This document shows, piece after piece, positions 1-58,119 of a DNA stretch of 58,119 nucleotides; the first letter of the stretch is position 1, and each line of letters begins with the position of its first letter. The position numbers and the translations under genes are program-made. Source of the DNA: a virus (taxonomy: Duplodnaviria; Caudoviricetes); the IMG/VR virus record IMGVR_UViG_3300035670_000245, positions 1 to 58,119 of that record, one strand, 5' to 3'. Under the pieces are notes generated by a model, which saw nothing but the letters and a program-made list of their open reading frames with translations, did no database searches and was not told the origin of the DNA.

Positions 1-127
1 AAACCCAATGAAAGGAAATTGAAAATGAGATCAATCGCCGCTACTTTCGCCTTGTTTTTCATCCTCATGGCTTTGCCATGCTTTGCCATTGCAGCAGTAC
101 TGCCTTTCGGCAGTGCTGAGTCATTGT
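1..127. repeat. Terminal direct repeat, identical to 57993..58119; indicates a circular/complete assembly
   Basis: First 127 nt match the last 127 nt; 127 is a common assembler k-mer, so probably an assembly overlap rather than the physical terminal repeat. Confidence 0.9.
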
Positions 128-192
128 TGTTTCTCTGCCTTGCCATTGGTCATGTTTTTCTAGCCTTTTCCGCTTCCATTGCTGCACATTAA
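25..192 (+). CDS. Small hydrophobic early protein (55 aa, two probable TM segments)
   Basis: Not in ORF track; AAAGGA SD then ATG at 25, MRSIAATFALFFILMALPCFAIAAVLPFG...AAH, TAA at 190-192. Confidence 0.65.
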   Translation: MRSIAATFALFFILMALPCFAIAAVLPFGSAESLLFLCLAIGHVFLAFSASIAAH

Positions 193-2372: not shown

Positions 2373-2440
2373 TGACAAGCAAGGATACAACCGGCTTTGT
2401 GGTGAGTGTGCAGTAGTTAGCAATTATGTGCCAGTTTTAC

Positions 2441-2456
2441 TGGCACTTTAATTGCC
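2441..2456 (+). promoter_or_regulatory. Sigma54-type promoter motif
   Basis: TGGCACTTTAATTGCC, GG-N10-GC; also one arm of an inverted repeat at 2420-2455. Confidence 0.5.
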
Positions 2457-2486: not shown

Positions 2487-2549
2487 CCTTAGGGATAGTA
2501 TTTACCCCTTGAACCGAAGGTGAAAGGGGAGTAAATACATCCCTGAAGG
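2487..2549 (+). promoter_or_regulatory. Long bulged leader hairpin (RNase III site-like), homologous to 57927..57984
   Basis: AGGGAT/ATCCCT, GTATTTAC/GTAAATAC, CCCTT/AAGGG, GA/GA internal loop, ACC-GAA-GGT apex. Confidence 0.65.
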
Positions 2550-2566: not shown

Positions 2567-2582
2567 TGACGAACATTCGTCA
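2567..2582. promoter_or_regulatory. Palindromic operator-like site TGACGAA-CA-TTCGTCA
   Basis: Upstream of AAAGGA SD of gene 2603. Confidence 0.7.
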
Positions 2583-2602
2583 ATAACTTGAAAGGAATCG
2601 CC

Positions 2603-2995
2603 ATGCAAGTAAAGATCATCCGCAATTCCCACCATGTGATCTTCTCACAGATCCACAAGCAAGCCCATGAGGCTGGCATGAAGGCTGGAACCGATGCCCT
2701 CCCCTCCCCTATGGTAGTGAGTGAGGCTGACATCCAGGGTAACCCTGTCGGCAAGTCCTGGTTTGTGTCTGAGGGTGCCTGTGGATTTGCCTGGGTAGCA
2801 TTCAAGGGCAATACAGCCTGGGGCAAGTGGGCGAAGAAGCAGGGCATTGCTAGCACTGCCTACCCCACAGGGTTACAGATCTGGGTTCACCAGTTTAACC
2901 AGAGCATGGCTCGTAAGGAGGCGTATGCCAGGGCATATGCTGGTGTATTGCGAGAGGCTGGCATCGATGCATATTCCGGTTCCCGTATGGATTAA
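2603..2995 (+). CDS. Hypothetical early protein
   Basis: AAAGGA SD before ATG 2603; CGFAWV and QSMARKEAYA motifs seen in phage proteins. Confidence 0.75.
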   Translation: MQVKIIRNSHHVIFSQIHKQAHEAGMKAGTDALPSPMVVSEADIQGNPVGKSWFVSEGACGFAWVAFKGNTAWGKWAKKQGIASTAYPTGLQIWVHQFNQSMARKEAYARAYAGVLREAGIDAYSGSRMD

Positions 2996-4506: not shown

Positions 4507-4662
4507 ATGAGTGACAACGAAGCAGTGACCCTGGCATTCGACTTGCTAGAGGGTGCCGAGGTAGTGCAAGTATATGATGACACCCTGTGGATTAAGGTAG
4601 ACAGGGGTTCGTACAATGCACTGTATCAACACATGTACCCACAACAATTCACAGAGGAGTAA
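4507..4662 (+). CDS. Small hypothetical protein (51 aa)
   Basis: Not in ORF track; AAGGA SD, MSDNEAVTLAFDLLEG... Confidence 0.6.
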   Translation: MSDNEAVTLAFDLLEGAEVVQVYDDTLWIKVDRGSYNALYQHMYPQQFTEE

Positions 4663-5988: not shown

Positions 5989-6885
5989 ATGTATACATCT
6001 GACCTCATTGCCAACCTTGACAATGTCCTTCCCGCCCTGCCCCAGGAGTTGAACTTCACCCCGGTGCATGAACCACAGATCCGCAATGGCACTATGATTG
6101 GCAATGCATTCTGGGTTGTCAATCCCACCAATGATATGGTGATTGGCAATGGCAAGTCTGTCCACCGTACCGCTAACTTCGCTACCCTCTGGGATGCACT
6201 GCGTGAAGGGTTGGTCAAGGCTAACATCGACACCGGGAATGCCCAGGTAAAGTTCCATGCACTGGGTAATGGTGCCGCTATGTCTGCCGAGATAATACTC
6301 AAGAAGTACGATTTCGAGAAGAAGCTTGGCGAGGCCGCACAGTTGCGTATGCTGGTGCGTGACTCACACGATCAGTCCATCAAGCGTCAGGTACAGGCTA
6401 TGGTCTACCGTCTGGCCTGCCTGAATGGCATGATCTCAATGCGTGAACGGGTTGGTGTGGCTGAGAAGCACACCCTCAATGCTGATGCCGAGGTGCTGGG
6501 TAAGGTAGCTTCCGAGTTCCCTATCCGTCTGGAGAATGAGGCTACCCTCATGTCTAACATGCGTCGCATTGGCACTGACCGTGACCAAGACATCGACTTC
6601 TTCCGTAGGAATGTAGCTACCTACCGTACCAAGTCTGGTGTCAAGATCAACAACAAGTTCTTGGAGCGGGTTGTAGGTATCTACGATAATTACCGTGACC
6701 TGGGGCAGAATGCCTATCGTGTCTACAATACTCTGACACACCTGTCTACCCATGTGGAAGCACAGCGTGATGGCACAGAGGTAGAGCGTAAGCGTATCCG
6801 CATTGAGCAGGACATCGAAGGGGTTATTCATGGCGAAGAGTTCCGGGCACGGTACCTCCCAGATTCCCTGCTTCTTGCGGCTTAA
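5989..6885 (+). CDS. DUF932/DUF945-like phage/plasmid protein
   Basis: SHDQS...YRLACLNGM...KHT motifs; AAGGAG SD. Confidence 0.7.
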   Translation: MYTSDLIANLDNVLPALPQELNFTPVHEPQIRNGTMIGNAFWVVNPTNDMVIGNGKSVHRTANFATLWDALREGLVKANIDTGNAQVKFHALGNGAAMSAEIILKKYDFEKKLGEAAQLRMLVRDSHDQSIKRQVQAMVYRLACLNGMISMRERVGVAEKHTLNADAEVLGKVASEFPIRLENEATLMSNMRRIGTDRDQDIDFFRRNVATYRTKSGVKINNKFLERVVGIYDNYRDLGQNAYRVYNTLTHLSTHVEAQRDGTEVERKRIRIEQDIEGVIHGEEFRARYLPDSLLLAA

Positions 6886-6995
6886 GCCAGACTACAAGAC
6901 CCGGAACTGGGTGGCGAAGTATGCCCTCAGATCCGGGGCTGGCAAGCACAAGGCAGGTAAGCAGAAACCAAAACATAAACTGAAGGAGATACAAA

Positions 6996-7202
6996 ATGAG
7001 ACTGAAGATTCTGACTAGAGATGACATGAATAACATCATGGACACCCTCAATGATCAAGACAGGACTATGTCTGTGGAACAGGATGTAGACGGGTCTGTG
7101 ATGCTGGACATGGGTAATTTTCTGACTGCCTATGCCAATGCCACAGTGTCTTATGTAGCTAAACAAAAAGAGTTCAAGGCTATTCTTGAGGAGGCACAAT
7201 GA
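6996..7202 (+). CDS. Hypothetical protein
   Basis: AAGGAG SD. Confidence 0.65.
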   Translation: MRLKILTRDDMNNIMDTLNDQDRTMSVEQDVDGSVMLDMGNFLTAYANATVSYVAKQKEFKAILEEAQ

Positions 7203-20729: not shown

Positions 20730-21740
20730 ATGACACCATACTCGACTTACATAGCCAAGTCCCGCTACTCTCGTTTCCTTAACACAGAGAACCGGCGGGA
20801 GAACTGGAACGAAACTGTAACCCGTTACTTCAACTTTATGGAGGATCACCTAGCTAAAAATTATAGCTATAATTTAACCCGTGATCTTCGTACCAAACTA
20901 GAGAATGCCGTACTAAACCTGGAAGTAATGCCCAGCATGAGGGCACTAATGACTGCAGGTAAGGCACTTGAACGGGACAACACTGCCGGTTACAATTGTT
21001 CATACATCCCTATTGATGACCCCAAAGCTTTCGATGAAGCTATGTACATTTTACTATGTGGAACGGGCGTAGGTTTCTCTGTGGAGCAGAAGTATGTCAA
21101 TCAATTACCTGAAGTACCCGATCAACTTTTTGATAGTCAAACTACTATCGTGGTTTCCGATTCAAAGGAAGGGTGGGCTAAAGCACTACGACAGCTACTG
21201 GCTCTTCTTTATTCTGGTGAAGTTGCAAAGTGGGATCTATCGAAGGTTAGGCCAGCGGGTGCTAGACTTAAGACATTTGGAGGACGAGCCAGTGGCCCCG
21301 CCCCACTGGAAGAGTTATTTAAATTTACCATCGCTAAATTCCGAGGTGCATTGGGTCGCCGTCTCACTTCGATTGAATGCCATGATATTCTGTGCAAGAT
21401 CGGGGAAGTTGTTGTGGTTGGCGGGGTGCGTAGATCGGCAATGATCTCTCTGTCGGATCTTGAGGATGACAAGATGCGGCACTGTAAGTCCGGTGCATGG
21501 TGGGAACAGAACGGGCAACGGGCACTAGCAAATAACTCAGCTACATATGTACAGAAACCTGACACAAGTCAGTTCCTGCATGAGTGGACAAGCTTATATG
21601 ATTCACACAGTGGTGAGCGAGGTATCTTTAGTCGTGAGGCATCGATTAAGCAAGCCGCTAAAAACGGGCGTAGGAACCCTGACTACGAGTTTGGTACCAA
21701 TCCATGCTCAGAGATCATATTGCGGCCTTACCAATTCTGT
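20730..21740 (+). CDS. nrdJ: Class II (B12-dependent) ribonucleotide reductase, exon 1
   Basis: PSMR, YNCSY, GTGVGFS, GGVRRSA, GTNPCSEI; ends ...PYQFC at the splice site. Confidence 0.9.
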
Positions 21741-21938
21741 TAATTTTAGCAGCCTTACATAGTAATATGTATTGCAAACCGTGTGAATTCAGGGGAAGTC
21801 CAGACCGGATAATCCTGACCCAAGTTAAATCGGGGGCAACGACTAGTCGAAAGACGTACACTCAAGCGAGTGGAAGCGCACGGCACCCTCATGGGGTGAT
21901 GATATAGTCTAAGCTGCATAGGAATATGCAGATGGGTG

Positions 21939-22014: not shown

Positions 22015-22464
22015 GTGGAAAGAAATAGAGAAGGTTACTTGGTTTCAGATACGCATAGAGAGTGTACTAATTGCAAGTGCATATTTGAAAAGACAAGTAA
22101 AATGACGTTGTGTAAAACGTGTAACAGTGAAAGAGTTAAGTCACAGACACCAGAGTGGAAAATGCACCAAAGGGCAAAACAGCGGAGTAAAGAAACTGGC
22201 AGGGAATTCAGCTTGTTGGTTTCTGATATAGTAATACCCGATGTCTGCCCCATATTGGGGATTAAATTGAATATGAATTCTGGTAAATCTGGTGCTTATA
22301 GAAACTCACCTTCACTTGATCGCATAGACAATAGTAGAGGCTACACTAAAGATAACATTCAAGTTATCTCTCAGTTAGCAAATGCAATGAAATGTCATGC
22401 GACTAACTCTGAGTTACATATGTTTGCACAATGGGTTCTTTCCAATGTCCCTGCCGCAGAGTAG
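22015..22464 (+). CDS. Intron-encoded HNH-like homing endonuclease
   Basis: CTNC...CKTC zinc finger; CPILG...SPSLDRIDNSRGYTKDN...AN.MK; GTG start with AAGGAGG. Confidence 0.85.
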   Translation: MERNREGYLVSDTHRECTNCKCIFEKTSKMTLCKTCNSERVKSQTPEWKMHQRAKQRSKETGREFSLLVSDIVIPDVCPILGIKLNMNSGKSGAYRNSPSLDRIDNSRGYTKDNIQVISQLANAMKCHATNSELHMFAQWVLSNVPAAE

Positions 22465-22486: not shown

Positions 22487-23365
22487 AATCTTACAGAAGT
22501 AGTCATTAGAGCAATGGACACTGTAGAAGATGTAGCCCGTAAGGTTGAGATTGCTACAATCTTAGGTACATTCCAATCAACCATGACACATTTCCCTTAC
22601 CTGCGTAAGATCTGGCAGAAGAATACAGAGGAAGAAAGGTTGCTGGGTGTATCCTTTACTGGTATTCTAGATAACGAATGGATGGGGAAAGTAAGCGATG
22701 AAACTGCAAAGAACTTGGAACAACTTAAGAGTGTCGCCGTGGATACCAACCTTCAGTTTAGCAATCTGCTTGGGATTCCCCAGTCGGCTGCGATCACTTG
22801 TGTCAAACCTAGCGGTACTGTGTCTCAGCTTGTTGATTCTGCCTCTGGCATTCATACTCGACATAGCGATTATTATATTCGTAGGGTTAGAGGAGATAAG
22901 AAAGACCCTCTCACGGCTTTTCTAACCAAGGCAGGCATCCCTACAGAAGATTGTGTCATGCGGCCTGAGAGTACGGCAGTATTCTCATTCCCAATGAAAG
23001 CGCCAGAAGGTGCCCGAACACGGGAAGATCTGACAGCTATCCAGCATCTGGATCTGTGGCTAATGTATCAGCGTCATTGGTGTGAGCATAAGCCGTCTGT
23101 CACCATCTCTGTGAAAGAAGATGAGTGGATGGATGTAGGTGCCTGGGTGTGGAAGAACTTCAGTGAGATATCTGGCGTGTCTTTCTTGCCGTATGATGGT
23201 GGCACCTATCGTCAGGCACCATATGAGGAATGCACAAAGGAGCAGTACGAAGAACTGTTGGCAAAAATGCCAACAACTATTGACTGGGATTCTCTGATAG
23301 AATATGATGATAATGTCGAGGGAGTGCAGACATTAGCTTGTACAGGTTCTTCTTGCGAAATCTAG
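22487..23365 (+). CDS. nrdJ: Class II ribonucleotide reductase, exon 2
   Basis: NLTEVV in frame with ATG 22514; TCVKPSGTVS, EHKPSVT, C-terminal ACTGSSCEI cysteine pair. Confidence 0.9.
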   Translation, partial: NLTEVVIRAMDTVEDVARKVEIATILGTFQSTMTHFPYLRKIWQKNTEEERLLGVSFTGILDNEWMGKVSDETAKNLEQLKSVAVDTNLQFSNLLGIPQSAAITCVKPSGTVSQLVDSASGIHTRHSDYYIRRVRGDKKDPLTAFLTKAGIPTEDCVMRPESTAVFSFPMKAPEGARTREDLTAIQHLDLWLMYQRHWCEHKPSVTISVKEDEWMDVGAWVWKNFSEISGVSFLPYDGGTYRQAPYEECTKEQYEELLAKMPTTIDWDSLIEYDDNVEGVQTLACTGSSCEI

Positions 23366-54624: not shown

Positions 54625-55010
54625 TAGTCTCTAAACTTTTTTACTTTTTTAGCAACTGCTTTAGGTTGGCTGACAAATTGCTTACCTGCCTTTGTGCCTT
54701 CCCTTTTAGCTTTCGTAGTAGCTGCATATTCTTTCGATGACAGTGACTTGATAGCTTTCTCAGGTAGATACCTCTCTCCAGTTGCGCCTGGACCAATAGT
54801 TGACGGCTTACCACTCTTTGTTCTCCATTTTTGTTTAGTCCATTCAGAAAGAGATTTTTGTTCCTTGGTCTTGCTACCAGTGTAACCGCCCCCCTTATCC
54901 TTATAGATCTTTCCTGCTAATTGCATAGCCCTGGCGGAGTGCTTACCACCCATCTTAGCCTTGGCCTCTGCCTTGGCTTTCTCCCAAAGCTGTGGGTTAC
55001 TTCTTCCCAT
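54624..55010 (-). CDS. Basic protein (DUF5872-like)
   Basis: [27 protein letters not shown]. Confidence 0.65.
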
Positions 55011-56713: not shown

Positions 56714-56923
56714 TCACTTCCTCCATCCAAGGGAACGCATAGAAGACTCTACCTGAGCCAAAGAAAAAAGTATTCCTGTCCGTTCCTTCAAGGCAACACG
56801 AACAAAGAATACATCCGAGTGGGGTACATGTAGATTGTCTAGATAGTTCCCTACAAGTGCTTCATAGAAATCTTCTAGTACAAAATTATCACGTAGGTAT
56901 ACAGTTTTTTTAGATTTAGTCAA
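56714..56923 (-). CDS. First late-arm protein
   Basis: HVPHSDVFFVR motif; TTG start. Confidence 0.55.
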   Translation of the reverse strand: MTKSKKTVYLRDNFVLEDFYEALVGNYLDNLHVPHSDVFFVRVALKERTGILFSLAQVESSMRSLGWRK

Positions 56924-57180
56924 GCTATTTCTGCAGTTTCAAAGGTACAGATAGAAACTACACATTTAGGGGATACAGATAGTATCTATGTAGGTGTGTC
57001 ACTTTAGGTGTGACACTTAAGTGAGTGTGTGTTTTTTAGGGGTAGTCCTAAGTTTATATATGTAATGTGTTAATTACTTTATTTTATAAACTTTAAATAC
57101 ATTACAGTTATATAGTTTTTTATAGTTATAATATTATATAGTTATAGTATTAAACACTCTCACACTTTCCCTTAACGGTA

Positions 57181-57209
57181 GTTATACACACGTTTTAGTG
57201 TTTTGTCAA
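57181..57209 (-). promoter_or_regulatory. Sigma70-type late promoter
   Basis: TTGACA-N17-TATAAC(TAC). Confidence 0.7.
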
Positions 57210-57266
57210 GACTTATGTCAATAAAACCTAAAATAAATATTTCTGTACATCTTCTTGACGTTTAAG

Positions 57267-57295
57267 ATTTTAGCATATTTTCTGTCCCGTGTCAA
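57267..57295 (-). promoter_or_regulatory. Second sigma70-type late promoter
   Basis: TTGACA-N17-TAAAAT with TG extension. Confidence 0.6.
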
Positions 57296-57538
57296 ATCAC
57301 TAAGCATATGCGTCTACCGATATATGAAAACCAGTGTTAACATTTGTGTGTGATAAGGCATGTTAGTGATTACTAACTAATACTAAAAACCTGATCTGTG
57401 TAAGAGTCCATATACATATAACGCCAGACCCCCCGGTGGCCCAGGCCCGGCCCCCCTCGCATGATGCACGGGCGCAGGATGTCACATACGCATGATGCGA
57501 TCACGACATCACGGATAGCGCATGATATTTGCTATGCA

Positions 57539-57551: not shown

Positions 57552-57763
57552 GATCTAAGGTTATACTGATTTCATATCAGTATCTGGTCAAAAATCGAAA
57601 GTGAACCGGGCCGATTCCGACAGGTGGTCAAAGATTGACCAGTCGGTGCATCAATTGCCCCTTTTCATTTTACAAATGAAGGGGTGGGGTCTGGTCATTG
57701 CCGAACCTTCGTCAATAAGTTTGGCTATGCCAAAAAGCTAGTTTGACCCCTTGCCAATGTAAT

Positions 57764-57779
57764 TGGCACGGTCTGTGCT
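57764..57779 (+). promoter_or_regulatory. Sigma54-type promoter motif
   Basis: TGGCACGGTCTGTGCT, GG-N10-GC. Confidence 0.55.
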
Positions 57780-57870: not shown

Positions 57871-57886
57871 TGGCATGGCCTTTGCT
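57871..57886 (+). promoter_or_regulatory. Sigma54-type promoter motif
   Basis: TGGCATGGCCTTTGCT, near-consensus TGGCAYR-N4-TTGCW. Confidence 0.65.
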
Positions 57887-57909: not shown

Positions 57910-58007
57910 CCTTTCATGGGTTTCATGGGGACTAGTAAATTACCCCTTGAAGCTTTGGTGAAAGGGGAATAATTTACAGTCCCCTTCTTATGAAACCCAA
58001 TGAAAGG
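57910..58007 (+). promoter_or_regulatory. About 100-nt leader hairpin sequestering the RBS of gene 1
   Basis: CCTTTCAT/ATGAAAGG, GGGTTTCAT/ATGAAACCC, GGGGACT/AGTCCCC, GTAAATTA/TAATTTAC, CCCCTT/AAGGGG. Confidence 0.7.
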
Positions 58008-58119
58008 AAATTGAAAATGAGATCAATCGCCGCTACTTTCGCCTTGTTTTTCATCCTCATGGCTTTGCCATGCTTTGCCATTGCAGCAGTACTGCCTTTC
58101 GGCAGTGCTGAGTCATTGT
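57993..58119. repeat. Second copy of the 127-bp terminal overlap
   Basis: Identical to 1..127. Confidence 0.9.

What the first reader, a model, noticed from the sequence alone, without database searches (positions are those of the whole stretch)
57910..58007. Two homologous long leader hairpins with compensatory changes, each just after a sigma54 motif
Seen: 57927-57984 and 2491-2544 share one architecture: outer stem, bulged A, 8-bp stem (GTAAATTA/TAATTTAC versus GTATTTAC/GTAAATAC), purine bulge, CCCTT/AAGGG, tandem GA/GA loop and a short apex. The sequences differ but pairing is kept. Each begins about 35-40 nt after a sigma54 motif, so promoter plus hairpin looks like a duplicated module. 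The first extends (CCTTTCAT GGGTTTCAT with ATGAAACCC A ATGAAAGG) to bury the AAAGG SD of gene 1. Established: T7 early mRNA and the lambda N leader use such stems as RNase III sites. Inference: a processing-dependent translational switch, an antitermination RNA, or an ssDNA hairpin recombination substrate with extrahelical bases.
Basis: partly seen in the sequence, partly recalled or inferred. Interest (0 to 1): 0.7.

Follow-up and report, generated by a model that had tools for sequence, protein, structure and literature searches.

The report
Conserved GA-capped hairpins in phage leaders
The two look-alike hairpins in front of this phage's early genes belong to a widespread family in HMO-2011-type phages that I could not find described anywhere; the stem sequence changes freely but the tip never does, which points to a specific, still unknown role in early gene expression.

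Summary
The window is a complete 58-kb HMO-2011-type phage genome. Hairpins A (57927-57984, extendable to 57910-58007) and B (2491-2544) are its only two copies of a conserved element. I found this element in 88 viral loci, including cultured Puniceispirillum phage HMO-2011 (3 copies) and Roseobacter phage CRP-1 (1 copy). The apex (N-GA-AC-loop-GU-GA-N') does not vary, while the roughly 24-bp stem covaries strongly: 95-97% of cells are paired, 15 of 16 and 10 of 16 pairs show double changes, and 0 of 500 shuffles reach the observed values. Copies always lie on the coding strand of the early operon. The first sits in the leader just after the promoter, and the others run from a stop codon towards the next ribosome-binding site. 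All 39 multi-copy loci have their copies on one strand. The sigma54-type motifs are credible but specific to this lineage. There is no Rfam match, and four literature searches found nothing. The function is unproven. My best guess (0.35) is an RNA processing and stability module of the T7 RNase III type with a specific apex determinant, which at copy A also hides the ribosome-binding site. Antitermination, a protein operator and DNA-level roles remain open, and the near-absence of wobble pairs is a real caveat for the RNA reading.

The parts
57927..57984 (+). Hairpin A core. Covariance-model hit at 57935-57977; invariant apex at 57944-57966.
   Evidence: Fold -31.3 kcal/mol, z -5.87. R1 35.1 bits; R2 47.6 bits.
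57910..58007 (+). Extended hairpin A. The outer stem CCUUUCAUGGGUUUCAU / AUGAAACCC-A-AUGAAAGG encloses the core and pairs with the ribosome-binding site.
   Evidence: Fold -54 kcal/mol, z -8.16; same structure within the whole predicted leader, z -7.56. Identical in L019. A relative in laid contigs has a different outer stem that again pairs with the site.
57871..57886 (+). Sigma54-type -24/-12 motif (TGGCAT-N5-TTGCT), the proximal promoter candidate for leader A.
   Evidence: 0 mismatches. The GG and TTGC elements are kept while the spacer differs at 3 positions in L019.
57764..57779 (+). Second, upstream sigma54-type motif. Its TGGCA is the right half of an inverted repeat TGCCA-N7-TGGCA (57752-57768).
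   Evidence: 1 mismatch. GG and GC are kept in L019 with the spacer changed. One laid contig joins 57781 to 57869, which removes the stretch between the two motifs.
58001..58020 (+). Ribosome-binding site (AAAGGAAA) and ATG (58018, which equals window position 25) of the first rightward ORF.
   Evidence: Read from the sequence. The site lies in the 3' arm of the extended hairpin.
2491..2544 (+). Hairpin B core. Covariance-model hit at 2497-2539; apex at 2506-2528; contiguous helix spans 2486-2551.
   Evidence: Fold -30.3 kcal/mol, z -5.84. R1 35.6 bits; R2 47.9 bits. Leader fold z -5.11.
2441..2456 (+). Sigma54-type motif (TGGCAC-N5-TTGCC) before B. It is the 3' half of the palindrome at 2420-2455, which is also terminator-like.
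   Evidence: 1 mismatch. The 40-nt block is 100% identical in L019 while its flanks diverge. The palindrome folds at -20 kcal/mol, z -5.25. Terminator-like hit at 2428-2446.
2568..2581 (+). Small second hairpin (GACGAACAUUCGUC) between hairpin B and the ribosome-binding site. It is the counterpart of the GUCCG-N4-CGGAC hairpin in HMO-2011-like copies.
   Evidence: Folds. Kept in L019 with a changed loop. The same big-hairpin, small-hairpin, ribosome-binding-site layout is seen in relatives.
2590..2605 (+). Ribosome-binding site (GAAAGGAA) and ATG (2603) of the 130-aa gene after hairpin B.
   Evidence: Read from the sequence. ORF 2603-2995; weak PHROG match of unknown function.

Best explanation
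Hairpins A and B are this phage's two copies of a conserved cis-element of HMO-2011-type phages. The element is a nearly perfect hairpin of 39-99 nt whose tip does not vary: a helix, then a symmetric GA/GA internal loop, then an A-U and a C-G pair closing a 3-4-nt loop. Its stem changes freely by double substitutions. It lies only on the coding strand of the early (rightward) operon. The first copy sits in the 5' leader shortly after the early promoter, which is sigma54-type in this lineage and sigma70-like by eye in others. Further copies fill the gaps between early genes. I infer that it works as RNA. On this reading it is a double-stranded leader and intercistronic module that is cut by, or protected from, host ribonucleases, much as the RNase III sites punctuate the T7 early transcript. 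The invariant tip would be either the specific mark read by a still unknown factor or the point where folding starts. At copy A the outer stem also pairs with the ribosome-binding site, so translation of the first gene would need the hairpin to be opened or cut. What is shown: the family, its anatomy, its covariation, and its position and orientation. What is inferred: that RNA is the active form, the processing and stability role, and the translational gate.
For: Family and covariation. 72 of 93 viral loci from an apex-pattern scan form the long hairpin (21 dropped by eye). Native flanks give 18.2 pairs and -29.7 kcal/mol against 9.9 pairs and -16.8 for 400 chimeras between groups. On 36 distinct sequences, 95.3% of cells are paired against 67.9% in shuffles, 15 of 16 pairs have double changes, and the covariation score is 0.586 against 0.139 (0 of 500 shuffles reach these values; slid controls reach at most 0.159). 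A replicate set ascertained with a different apex variant gives 97.3% against 80.7%, 10 of 16 pairs, and 0.390 against 0.112. The apex helix itself covaries (CCC/GGG, CAC/GUG, CUC/GAG; the pair next to the GA loop changes U-A, A-U, C-G), while the GA..GA core is kept in 65 of 70 distinct cores. Position and strand. All 39 of 39 sources with two or more copies have them on one strand, with a median spacing of 1127 nt. HMO-2011 has 3 copies in series: 30 nt before gp74, then between gp74 and gp01, then between gp01 and gp02. Secondary copies start at the upstream stop codon and are followed by a ribosome-binding site and ATG. No copy lies in the late region of the window or of HMO-2011. Double-stranded length. 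The mean is 24.4 pairs (range 17-28), about two helical turns. Sense-strand signals. The mismatches are always GA/GA on the coding strand. The only recurrent one-sided change is C-G to U.G in the cap, in 6 of 36 distinct sequences, which is a valid pair only on the sense strand. The sense fold is the more stable in 45 of 68. Hiding of the ribosome-binding site at A.
Against: The stems are almost purely Watson-Crick. Among 41 distinct copies there are 599 WC, 2 G.U and 3 A.C pairs. In full hairpins G.U makes up 27 of 1656 pairs on the sense strand and 33 of 1668 on the antisense. No stem pair shows a one-sided change. This is unusual for a structured RNA and fits a DNA hairpin or cruciform equally well. 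As far as I recall, RNase III needs no particular apex, so the invariant tip is not explained by that enzyme alone. No RNA data exist for this phage. Four cultured relatives (CRP-2, CRP-207, CRP-3, HTVC033P) have no copy in their early regions, so the element is dispensable for the group. Only copy A hides its ribosome-binding site. Both alignments used for the statistics were fitted to the model, and both scans fixed the apex by design.
Confidence: 0.35

Rival explanations
1. Processive antitermination element, working like HK022 put or lambda nut. The nascent hairpin, alone or with a phage protein bound at the invariant tip, modifies host RNA polymerase so that it reads through terminators in the early operon.
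For: The layout matches put, which has homologous copies just downstream of the early promoters, one close to the start and one further in (PMC9378689, passages read). Here copy A follows its promoter motif by 23-40 nt and copy B follows its own by 34 nt. Further copies lie inside the operon. The element is restricted to the early region. Terminator-like hairpins lie downstream of A at 95-118, 1316-1336 and 2428-2446. An invariant tip suits a fixed partner such as RNA polymerase.
Against: put is two stem-loops of about 70 nt, whereas copy A is a single hairpin. 0 of 49 copies have a boxA-like sequence nearby. The conserved part is an internal GA/GA loop, not a boxB-type pentaloop. Stems of about 24 perfect pairs are not needed for either known system. 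Copy B has its own promoter motif. Terminator-like hits are not enriched (13 found against 9.1 +/- 3.4 in shuffles).
Confidence: 0.2
2. Operator for a sequence-specific RNA-binding protein or nuclease, from the phage or the host, that recognises the GA-capped tip and shuts off or times early-gene expression.
For: The tip is invariant across phages that share no other nucleotide similarity. The element is restricted to early transcripts. It is present in only part of the phage group, which suggests an accessory system. An L5 gp82-like early protein is present in the window, HMO-2011 and CRP-1 and absent from the early regions of the four hairpin-less phages.
Against: The tip lies about 24 bp away from the ribosome-binding site, so a protein bound there would not block the ribosome directly. 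No RNA-binding or nuclease domain was found among 30 window proteins scanned with Pfam and 10 with PHROGs. The gp82-like family has more than 3900 members in many phages. Its confident model (pLDDT 90.3) matches no known fold, so the co-occurrence (3 with, 4 without) is weak evidence.
Confidence: 0.15
3. A DNA-level element: a strand-specific single-stranded DNA hairpin or an extruded cruciform. It would serve as a hairpin promoter (as in phage N4), a priming or recombination site, or the homologous boundary of mobile promoter-plus-gene cassettes like the PeSLs of T4-type phages.
For: The stems are Watson-Crick on both strands, with no wobble excess and no one-sided changes. There are 2-3 co-oriented copies about 1.1 kb apart at the start of the early region, which as I recall resembles the N4 early promoters. 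In one contig group the same promoter plus hairpin precedes 5 different genes. Laid contigs show deletion joints between repeated promoter motifs. These last two points resemble PeSL-mediated shuffling (PMC2839356, passages read).
Against: Promoter motifs lie upstream of the hairpins, so the hairpins should be transcribed. Neither of the two largest proteins (1142 and 1077 aa) gave a Pfam or PDB-sequence match, so no virion RNA polymerase was recognised; this is not conclusive. The asymmetric GA/GA centre always faces the coding strand. The U.G variant is valid only on the sense strand. In PeSLs the stem-loop is a terminator lying between or over the promoter boxes, whereas here it lies downstream. 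In integron attC sites, as I recall, the base of the stem is conserved and the tip is variable, which is the reverse of what is seen here.
Confidence: 0.2
4. A generic stable hairpin with no specific partner. The tip is conserved only because it is an unusually stable cap that starts the folding of AT-rich stems, or by descent.
For: The same 21-nt cap occurs in an unrelated 55-nt tandem and dispersed repeat of one Bacteroidia metagenome-assembled genome. Tandem G.A mismatches and C-GNA-G triloops are known to be stable (recalled).
Against: Many other stable caps exist, yet 65 of 70 distinct cores keep the same GA..GA core while every neighbouring pair covaries. The element is restricted to early operons and to one strand.
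Confidence: 0.08

Closest known systems
RNase III processing sites of the phage T7 early operon (R0.3, R0.5, R1, R1.1, R1.3) and the lambda N-leader RNase III hairpin (recalled, not read here)
   Same: Homologous hairpins of roughly two helical turns. One lies in the leader after the early promoters and others lie between early genes, on the transcribed strand. In the lambda N leader the structure also affects translation.
   Different: Here a 20-nt tip is invariant across very divergent phages and the stems are nearly perfect. The internal bubble typical of T7 sites was not identified. Cleavage is untested. The hosts are probably alphaproteobacteria (the cultured relatives' hosts are SAR116 and Roseobacter), not E. 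coli.
HK022 put RNA (putL, putR)
   Same: Homologous structured RNAs just downstream of the two early promoters, with pairing kept between copies (PMC9378689).
   Different: put has two stem-loops of about 70 nt with bulges and a triplex. This element is one long hairpin, sometimes followed by a small second one, with a tandem-GA cap. It has up to 3 copies, some directly between genes. No sequence similarity was tested.
PeSL cassettes (promoter-early stem-loops) of T4-type phages
   Same: Repeated units of about 100 bp made of an early promoter, a stem-loop and a ribosome-binding site, standing before variable small early genes and acting as recombination points (PMC2839356; PMC4122927 abstract). 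The palindrome overlapping the promoter motif before copy B has this composite look.
   Different: The PeSL stem-loop is a G/C-tract terminator placed between or over the -35 and -10 boxes. The GA-capped hairpin lies downstream of the promoter, has no U-tract (42 of 49 have at most 2 T in the next 8 nt) and has a conserved tip with covarying stems.
Sigma54-dependent phage promoters (Pseudomonas phage YuA; recalled, not read here)
   Same: TGGCAY-N5-TTGC motifs before phage genes, conserved in a relative with a variable spacer.
   Different: Here the motifs precede early-region genes. No activator protein was found among the 30 proteins scanned. Two of the three motifs overlap TGCCA-N7-TGGCA inverted repeats.

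Membership tests
T7-type RNase III processing site | Double-stranded stem of about 20 bp or more | tested here: met
   Mean 24.4 pairs per hairpin, range 17-28, in 68 distinct copies.
T7-type RNase III processing site | Located in the leader and between cistrons of a polycistronic early transcript | tested here: met
   Window copies follow promoter motifs. HMO-2011 has copies before gp74, between gp74 and gp01, and between gp01 and gp02. Secondary copies run from the stop codon towards the ribosome-binding site.
T7-type RNase III processing site | Cleaved by RNase III in vivo or in vitro | not testable with these tools
   No RNA run holds the phage.
HK022 put RNA | About 70 nt folded as two stem-loops | tested here: inconclusive
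   Copy A is one hairpin. Copy B and HMO-2011-like secondary copies have a big hairpin plus a small one. Definition taken from PMC9378689.
HK022 put RNA | Homologous copies downstream of the early promoters | tested here: met
HK022 put RNA | Acts on the RNA polymerase beta' zinc-binding domain without a protein factor | not testable with these tools
   Needs biochemistry.
lambda nut site | boxA sequence next to the hairpin | tested here: not met
   0 of 49 distinct copies have a YGCTCTTWA-like sequence in the stretch searched, which was the hit plus 30 nt on each side.
lambda nut site | boxB: 5-bp stem with a conserved GNRA-like pentaloop (recalled) | tested here: not met
   The terminal loop varies in sequence and length (3-4 nt). 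The conserved part is the GA/GA internal loop.
Kink-turn / K-loop | Tandem G.A pairs | tested here: met
   At the sequence level only: GA opposite GA in all copies.
Kink-turn / K-loop | Three-nucleotide bulge between the canonical stem and the G.A pairs (recalled) | tested here: not met
   The loop is a symmetric 2x2 with Watson-Crick helices on both sides.
Intrinsic terminator | U-tract directly after the stem | tested here: not met
   T count in the 8 nt after the hairpin is 0-2 in 42 of 49, 3 in 6 and 4 in 1.
PeSL cassette | [quoted passage not shown] | tested here: inconclusive
   The same promoter-like region plus hairpin precedes 5 different genes in one contig group. Deletion joints lie between promoter repeats.
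PeSL cassette | The stem-loop is a terminator between or over the -35 and -10 boxes | tested here: not met
   The GA-capped hairpin lies 23-40 nt downstream of the promoter motif. Only the separate palindrome at 2420-2455 overlaps a promoter motif. Definition taken from PMC2839356.
N4-type hairpin promoter | The phage carries a virion RNA polymerase | tested here: inconclusive
   The 1142-aa and 1077-aa late proteins have no Pfam or PDB-sequence match. Their folds were not modelled.
Integron attC site | Conserved core sites at the base of the stem with a variable tip (recalled) | tested here: not met
   Here the base is variable and the tip is conserved.
Sigma54 promoter | TGGCAC-N5-TTGC with GG and GC ten bases apart | tested here: met
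   57871-57886 (0 mismatches), 2441-2456 (1) and 57764-57779 (1). The window total is 14 against 5.74 +/- 2.19 expected.
Sigma54 promoter | Both elements conserved in relatives while the spacer varies | tested here: met
   Window against L019. The site before B is identical, so it is uninformative.
Sigma54 promoter | An enhancer-binding AAA+ activator and host RpoN | tested here: inconclusive
   No Sigma54_activat domain among the 30 window proteins scanned with Pfam. The remaining ORFs were not scanned and the host is unknown.
Any Rfam family | Covariance-model match | tested here: not met
   Whole window at gathering thresholds: only a group I intron. Both hairpin regions, HMO-2011 locus L075 and locus L014 at permissive E-values: only chance-level hits to eukaryotic families.

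The most novel reading that the evidence does not exclude
The GA-capped hairpin is a new class of phage regulatory element. Its invariant tandem-GA tip would be the docking site for a conserved, still unidentified partner (host RNA polymerase, a ribonuclease or a phage protein) that sets the timing of the early programme in HMO-2011-type phages. These phages include isolates infecting major marine bacteria. The strict Watson-Crick stems leave open that it acts as strand-specific folded DNA as well as RNA.
Probability: 0.4. Interest if true: 0.75.

Novelty: new variant of a known kind. Interest (0 to 1): 0.62.

Why it matters
HMO-2011-type phages infect SAR116, Roseobacter and SAR11 bacteria and, as I recall, are among the most abundant viruses in the sea, yet nothing is known about how they control their early genes. 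This element gives a concrete, testable handle. It is a short motif with clear-cut invariant and covarying parts. It is present in two cultured phage-host systems (HMO-2011 and CRP-1) and absent from close cultured relatives, which serve as natural controls. Whichever mechanism is right (processing, antitermination, a protein operator or a DNA hairpin), the family would add a new recognisable regulatory signal for annotating uncultured phage genomes. It is also a candidate new family for RNA databases.

Tried and rejected
1. Nucleotide search of the leader regions against 50,697 deposited phage records: no match.
2. Earlier notes of this scan, by place and by sequence: nothing. A words query was malformed and not repeated.
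3. MAFFT alignments A1-A3 could not align the lower stems, and RNAalifold on A1 recovered only the apex. I therefore used a 9-sequence seed with a hand-written structure and Infernal realignment.
4. RNA expression: no RNA holder was listed among 20 runs, so transcript ends could not be examined.
Among the 80 loci searched, none has the full architecture; there are only apex-only local hits, the best being 30.7 bits in a Bacteroidia MAG repeat.
6. Candidate partner protein (L5 gp82-like): widespread family, confident model, no fold match by Foldseek or by the wide VIA search, where the best Z was 2.6. I dropped this lead.
7. Virion RNA polymerase idea: the two largest late proteins have no Pfam or PDB-sequence match. 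I did not pursue it with folds.
8. Wobble-pair strand test: no asymmetry.
9. Literature searches: 'HMO-2011' with 'stem-loop' gave 0 papers, with 'hairpin' 0, 'HMO-2011-type' with 'promoter' gave 3 unrelated papers, and 'HMO-2011' / 'intergenic' / 'secondary structure' gave nothing relevant. The phage sigma54 search gave nothing directly relevant in the listing.
10. Supplementary files of papers were not consulted because they are closed. Those of the put and PeSL papers hold alignments that could refine the comparisons.

Full report
**What the window is.** The last 127 bases repeat the first 127, and the record is a complete viral genome with terminal repeats. Genes run rightward from about 1 to 23.4 kb (replication and nucleotide metabolism) and leftward from 23.6 to 56.9 kb (virion and packaging). 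Its DNA polymerase is 60% identical to that of Puniceispirillum phage HMO-2011 and 54-59% identical to those of Roseobacter phages CRP-1, CRP-345, CRP-2, CRP-603 and CRP-207. It is therefore an HMO-2011-type phage. The public runs that hold it are labelled subsurface, soil and freshwater metagenomes. Hairpin A lies at the divergent junction between the two arms, in front of the first rightward gene. Hairpin B lies 2.7 kb further into the rightward arm.

**Checking the observation.** Both hairpins exist as described and fold far better than shuffled sequence: z is -5.87 and -5.84 for the cores and -8.16 for the extended A. The apex pattern occurs twice in the window against 0.13 expected. Two covariance models find exactly these two sites and nothing else. 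R1 gives 35.6 and 35.1 bits, and R2 gives 47.9 and 47.6 bits. The next hits are the antisense of the same sites, followed by unrelated sequence at 10.8-13.4 bits. The sigma54-type motifs are at the stated distances. The outer stem of A includes the ribosome-binding site.

**The hairpins belong to a large family.**
- A scan of viral contigs for the shared apex returned 93 loci. In 72 of them the motif caps a long hairpin whose lower stem differs completely from group to group; I dropped 21 loci by eye as not forming one.
- One locus is phage HMO-2011 itself.
- Native flanks pair much better than chimeras made between groups: 18.2 pairs against 9.9, and -29.7 against -16.8 kcal/mol.
- A model built from 9 copies found further, more divergent copies 0.35-2.6 kb away on the same strand in many loci. 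In these copies the apex helix itself covaries (CCC/GGG, CAC/GUG, CUC/GAG), as does the pair next to the GA loop (U-A, A-U, C-G), while the GA..GA core stays fixed.
- Formal counts on 36 distinct sequences: 95.3% of cells paired against 67.9% in shuffles, 15 of 16 pairs with changes on both sides, and a covariation score of 0.586 against 0.139. None of 500 shuffles reach these values, and slid controls reach at most 0.159.
- A second scan with the CAC/GUG apex variant gave 97 more stretches (80 rows were listed, 4 of them loci already held). The second model R2 found 79 strong matches in the 76 new loci. The replicate statistics are 97.3% against 80.7% paired, 10 of 16 pairs, and 0.390 against 0.112.
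- Caveat: both alignments were fitted to the model, and both scans fixed the apex by design, so conservation of the fixed letters is partly ascertainment. The variation seen in model-found secondary copies is what defines the true invariant core.

**Where the copies sit.**
- Across the two alignments, 88 sources hold at least one copy and 39 hold two or three. In all 39 the copies are on one strand, with a median spacing of 1127 nt.
- HMO-2011 has three copies in series: 30 nt before gp74 (the first rightward gene at the divergent junction, as in the window), then between gp74 and gp01, then between gp01 and gp02.
- Secondary copies begin at the stop codon of the upstream gene. In HMO-2011-like phages they are followed by a small GUCCG-N4-CGGAC hairpin, a ribosome-binding site and the ATG. 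Window copy B has the same layout, with its small hairpin at 2568-2581.
- Neither the window nor HMO-2011 has a copy in the late region.
- The element is not universal in the group. CRP-1 has one copy (50.9 bits with R2). The early regions of CRP-2, CRP-207 and CRP-3 have none, and HTVC033P has only a non-significant 15.6-bit hit. The whole records were also searched, with a filtered method.
- Eighty of the 120 bacterial genome loci that matched the apex pattern were searched with the model, and none holds a full-architecture copy.

**Promoters.**
- At site A, the GG and TTGC elements of the motif at 57871-57886 are kept in relative L019 while the spacer changes. The same holds for a second motif at 57764-57779.
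- At site B, the motif is the right half of a 36-nt palindrome (2420-2455) that is 100% conserved in L019. It folds at -20 kcal/mol and also scores as terminator-like.
- I read these as credible sigma54-type promoters. The one before B is combined with a terminator or operator.
- Only 2 of 43 distinct relatives' hairpins (both in L019) have such a motif within 130 nt upstream. Other groups show sigma70-like boxes by eye (TTGACA, 17-18 nt, TACCAT or TATTAT) 0-25 nt before the hairpin; I did not test these statistically.
- The hairpin therefore follows whatever early promoter a lineage uses. No sigma54 activator was found among the 30 proteins scanned with Pfam.

**RNA or DNA?**
- For RNA on the coding strand: the promoter-then-hairpin order; the exclusive co-orientation with genes; the asymmetric GA/GA centre always on the coding strand; a U.G replacement of the cap's C-G pair in 6 of 36 distinct sequences; and a slightly more stable sense fold in 45 of 68.
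- Against RNA: the stems are almost purely Watson-Crick. There are 599 WC, 2 G.U and 3 A.C pairs. G.U makes up 27 of 1656 pairs on the sense strand and 33 of 1668 on the antisense. No stem pair shows a one-sided change.
- This could reflect a need for perfect duplex, copying between the two arms during replication (inference), or function as folded DNA. No RNA run holds the phage, so the question stays open.

**Mechanism.** The stems average 24.4 pairs and span 39-99 nt. They have no U-tract, no boxA, no three-base bulge and no Rfam match. They are therefore not terminators, nut sites, kink-turns or members of any curated RNA family.
- Their length, perfection and leader-plus-intercistronic placement most resemble the RNase III sites of the T7 early transcript (recalled).
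- Their two-to-three homologous copies after early promoters also resemble put RNA.
- The promoter-hairpin-gene modularity resembles PeSL cassettes. This includes five different genes behind one promoter-hairpin unit and deletion joints between promoter repeats in laid contigs.
- None of these three explains the invariant tip, which argues for a specific partner.
- I rank an RNA processing and stability module with a specific apex determinant first (0.35). At copy A this module also gates translation. The gate is supported by a relative whose different outer stem again pairs CCTT with the ribosome-binding site.
- Antitermination and a DNA-level role follow at 0.2 each, a protein operator at 0.15 and a generic stable hairpin at 0.08.

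**Novelty.** Four literature searches and the Rfam searches found no description of the element. The kind of element, cis-acting hairpin modules in phage early operons, is known. This family, with its tandem-GA cap and strictly Watson-Crick covarying stems, appears to be new.

Noticed in passing
window 21731-21931 (+): A group I intron (Rfam RF00028, 84.9 bits) interrupts the ribonucleotide reductase gene. ORFs 20730-21743 and 22514-23365 match the single HMO-2011 reductase gene (65% and 63% identity). ORF 22015-22464 after the intron core may be a homing endonuclease; I did not check it.
   Followed up: partly
window 2429-2445 and 57752-57768 (+): Both promoter regions carry the same inverted repeat, TGCCA-N7-TGGCA, whose right half is the -24 element of a sigma54-type motif. 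It could be an operator overlapping the promoter.
   Followed up: partly
window 57656-57725 (+): A possible third, degenerate module lies upstream of promoter A. It has a hairpin on the same CCCCUU/AAGGGG base but without the GA cap (57656-57689), followed by a stretch (57700-57719) that resembles the small hairpin and spacer after copy B (2568-2587). The fold z-score is only -2.3, and neither model detects it.
   Followed up: partly
window, whole: Sigma54-type motifs are enriched: 14 with at most 1 mismatch against 5.74 +/- 2.19 expected. By my reading, 12 of the 14 point the same way as the local genes. A perfect match lies at 4532-4547 in the early region.
   Followed up: no
window 25-192 (+): The first ORF after hairpin A is a 55-aa hydrophobic peptide with a terminator-like hairpin inside it (95-118). 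It is absent from relative L019 and from a laid freshwater contig, where the leader runs straight into the homologue of gene 226-960. It looks like a lineage-specific insertion.
   Followed up: partly
window 57040-57530: The 1.1-kb divergent intergenic region has a very AT-rich stretch (about 57040-57420), a GC-rich run (57430-57460) and three GCATGAT repeats (57461-57530). It may be an origin or operator region.
   Followed up: no
L130 5711-5844 and at least 12 other contigs of one Bacteroidia MAG (loci L105, L113, L131, L132, L136, L150, L152, L155, L163, L165, L169, L171): A 55-nt tandem and dispersed repeat carries the same 21-nt GA-capped mini-hairpin next to a GACUCC..GGAGUC hairpin, but without the long stem. 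It has no Rfam match. Whether this is convergence or chance is unexplained.
   Followed up: partly
L098 about 6786-7000 (HMO-2011 record 54786-55000): After gp74 there is a small GUCCG..CGGAC hairpin, a ribosome-binding site and an unannotated ORF for a small hydrophobic peptide, by my reading of the printed sequence.
   Followed up: no
window 56714-56923 (-): The first leftward gene (69 aa, no clear family) matches translated DNA in 30 of the fetched loci, at 49-54% identity in the 14 matches listed. It lies next to the regulatory region and is a candidate regulator.
   Followed up: partly
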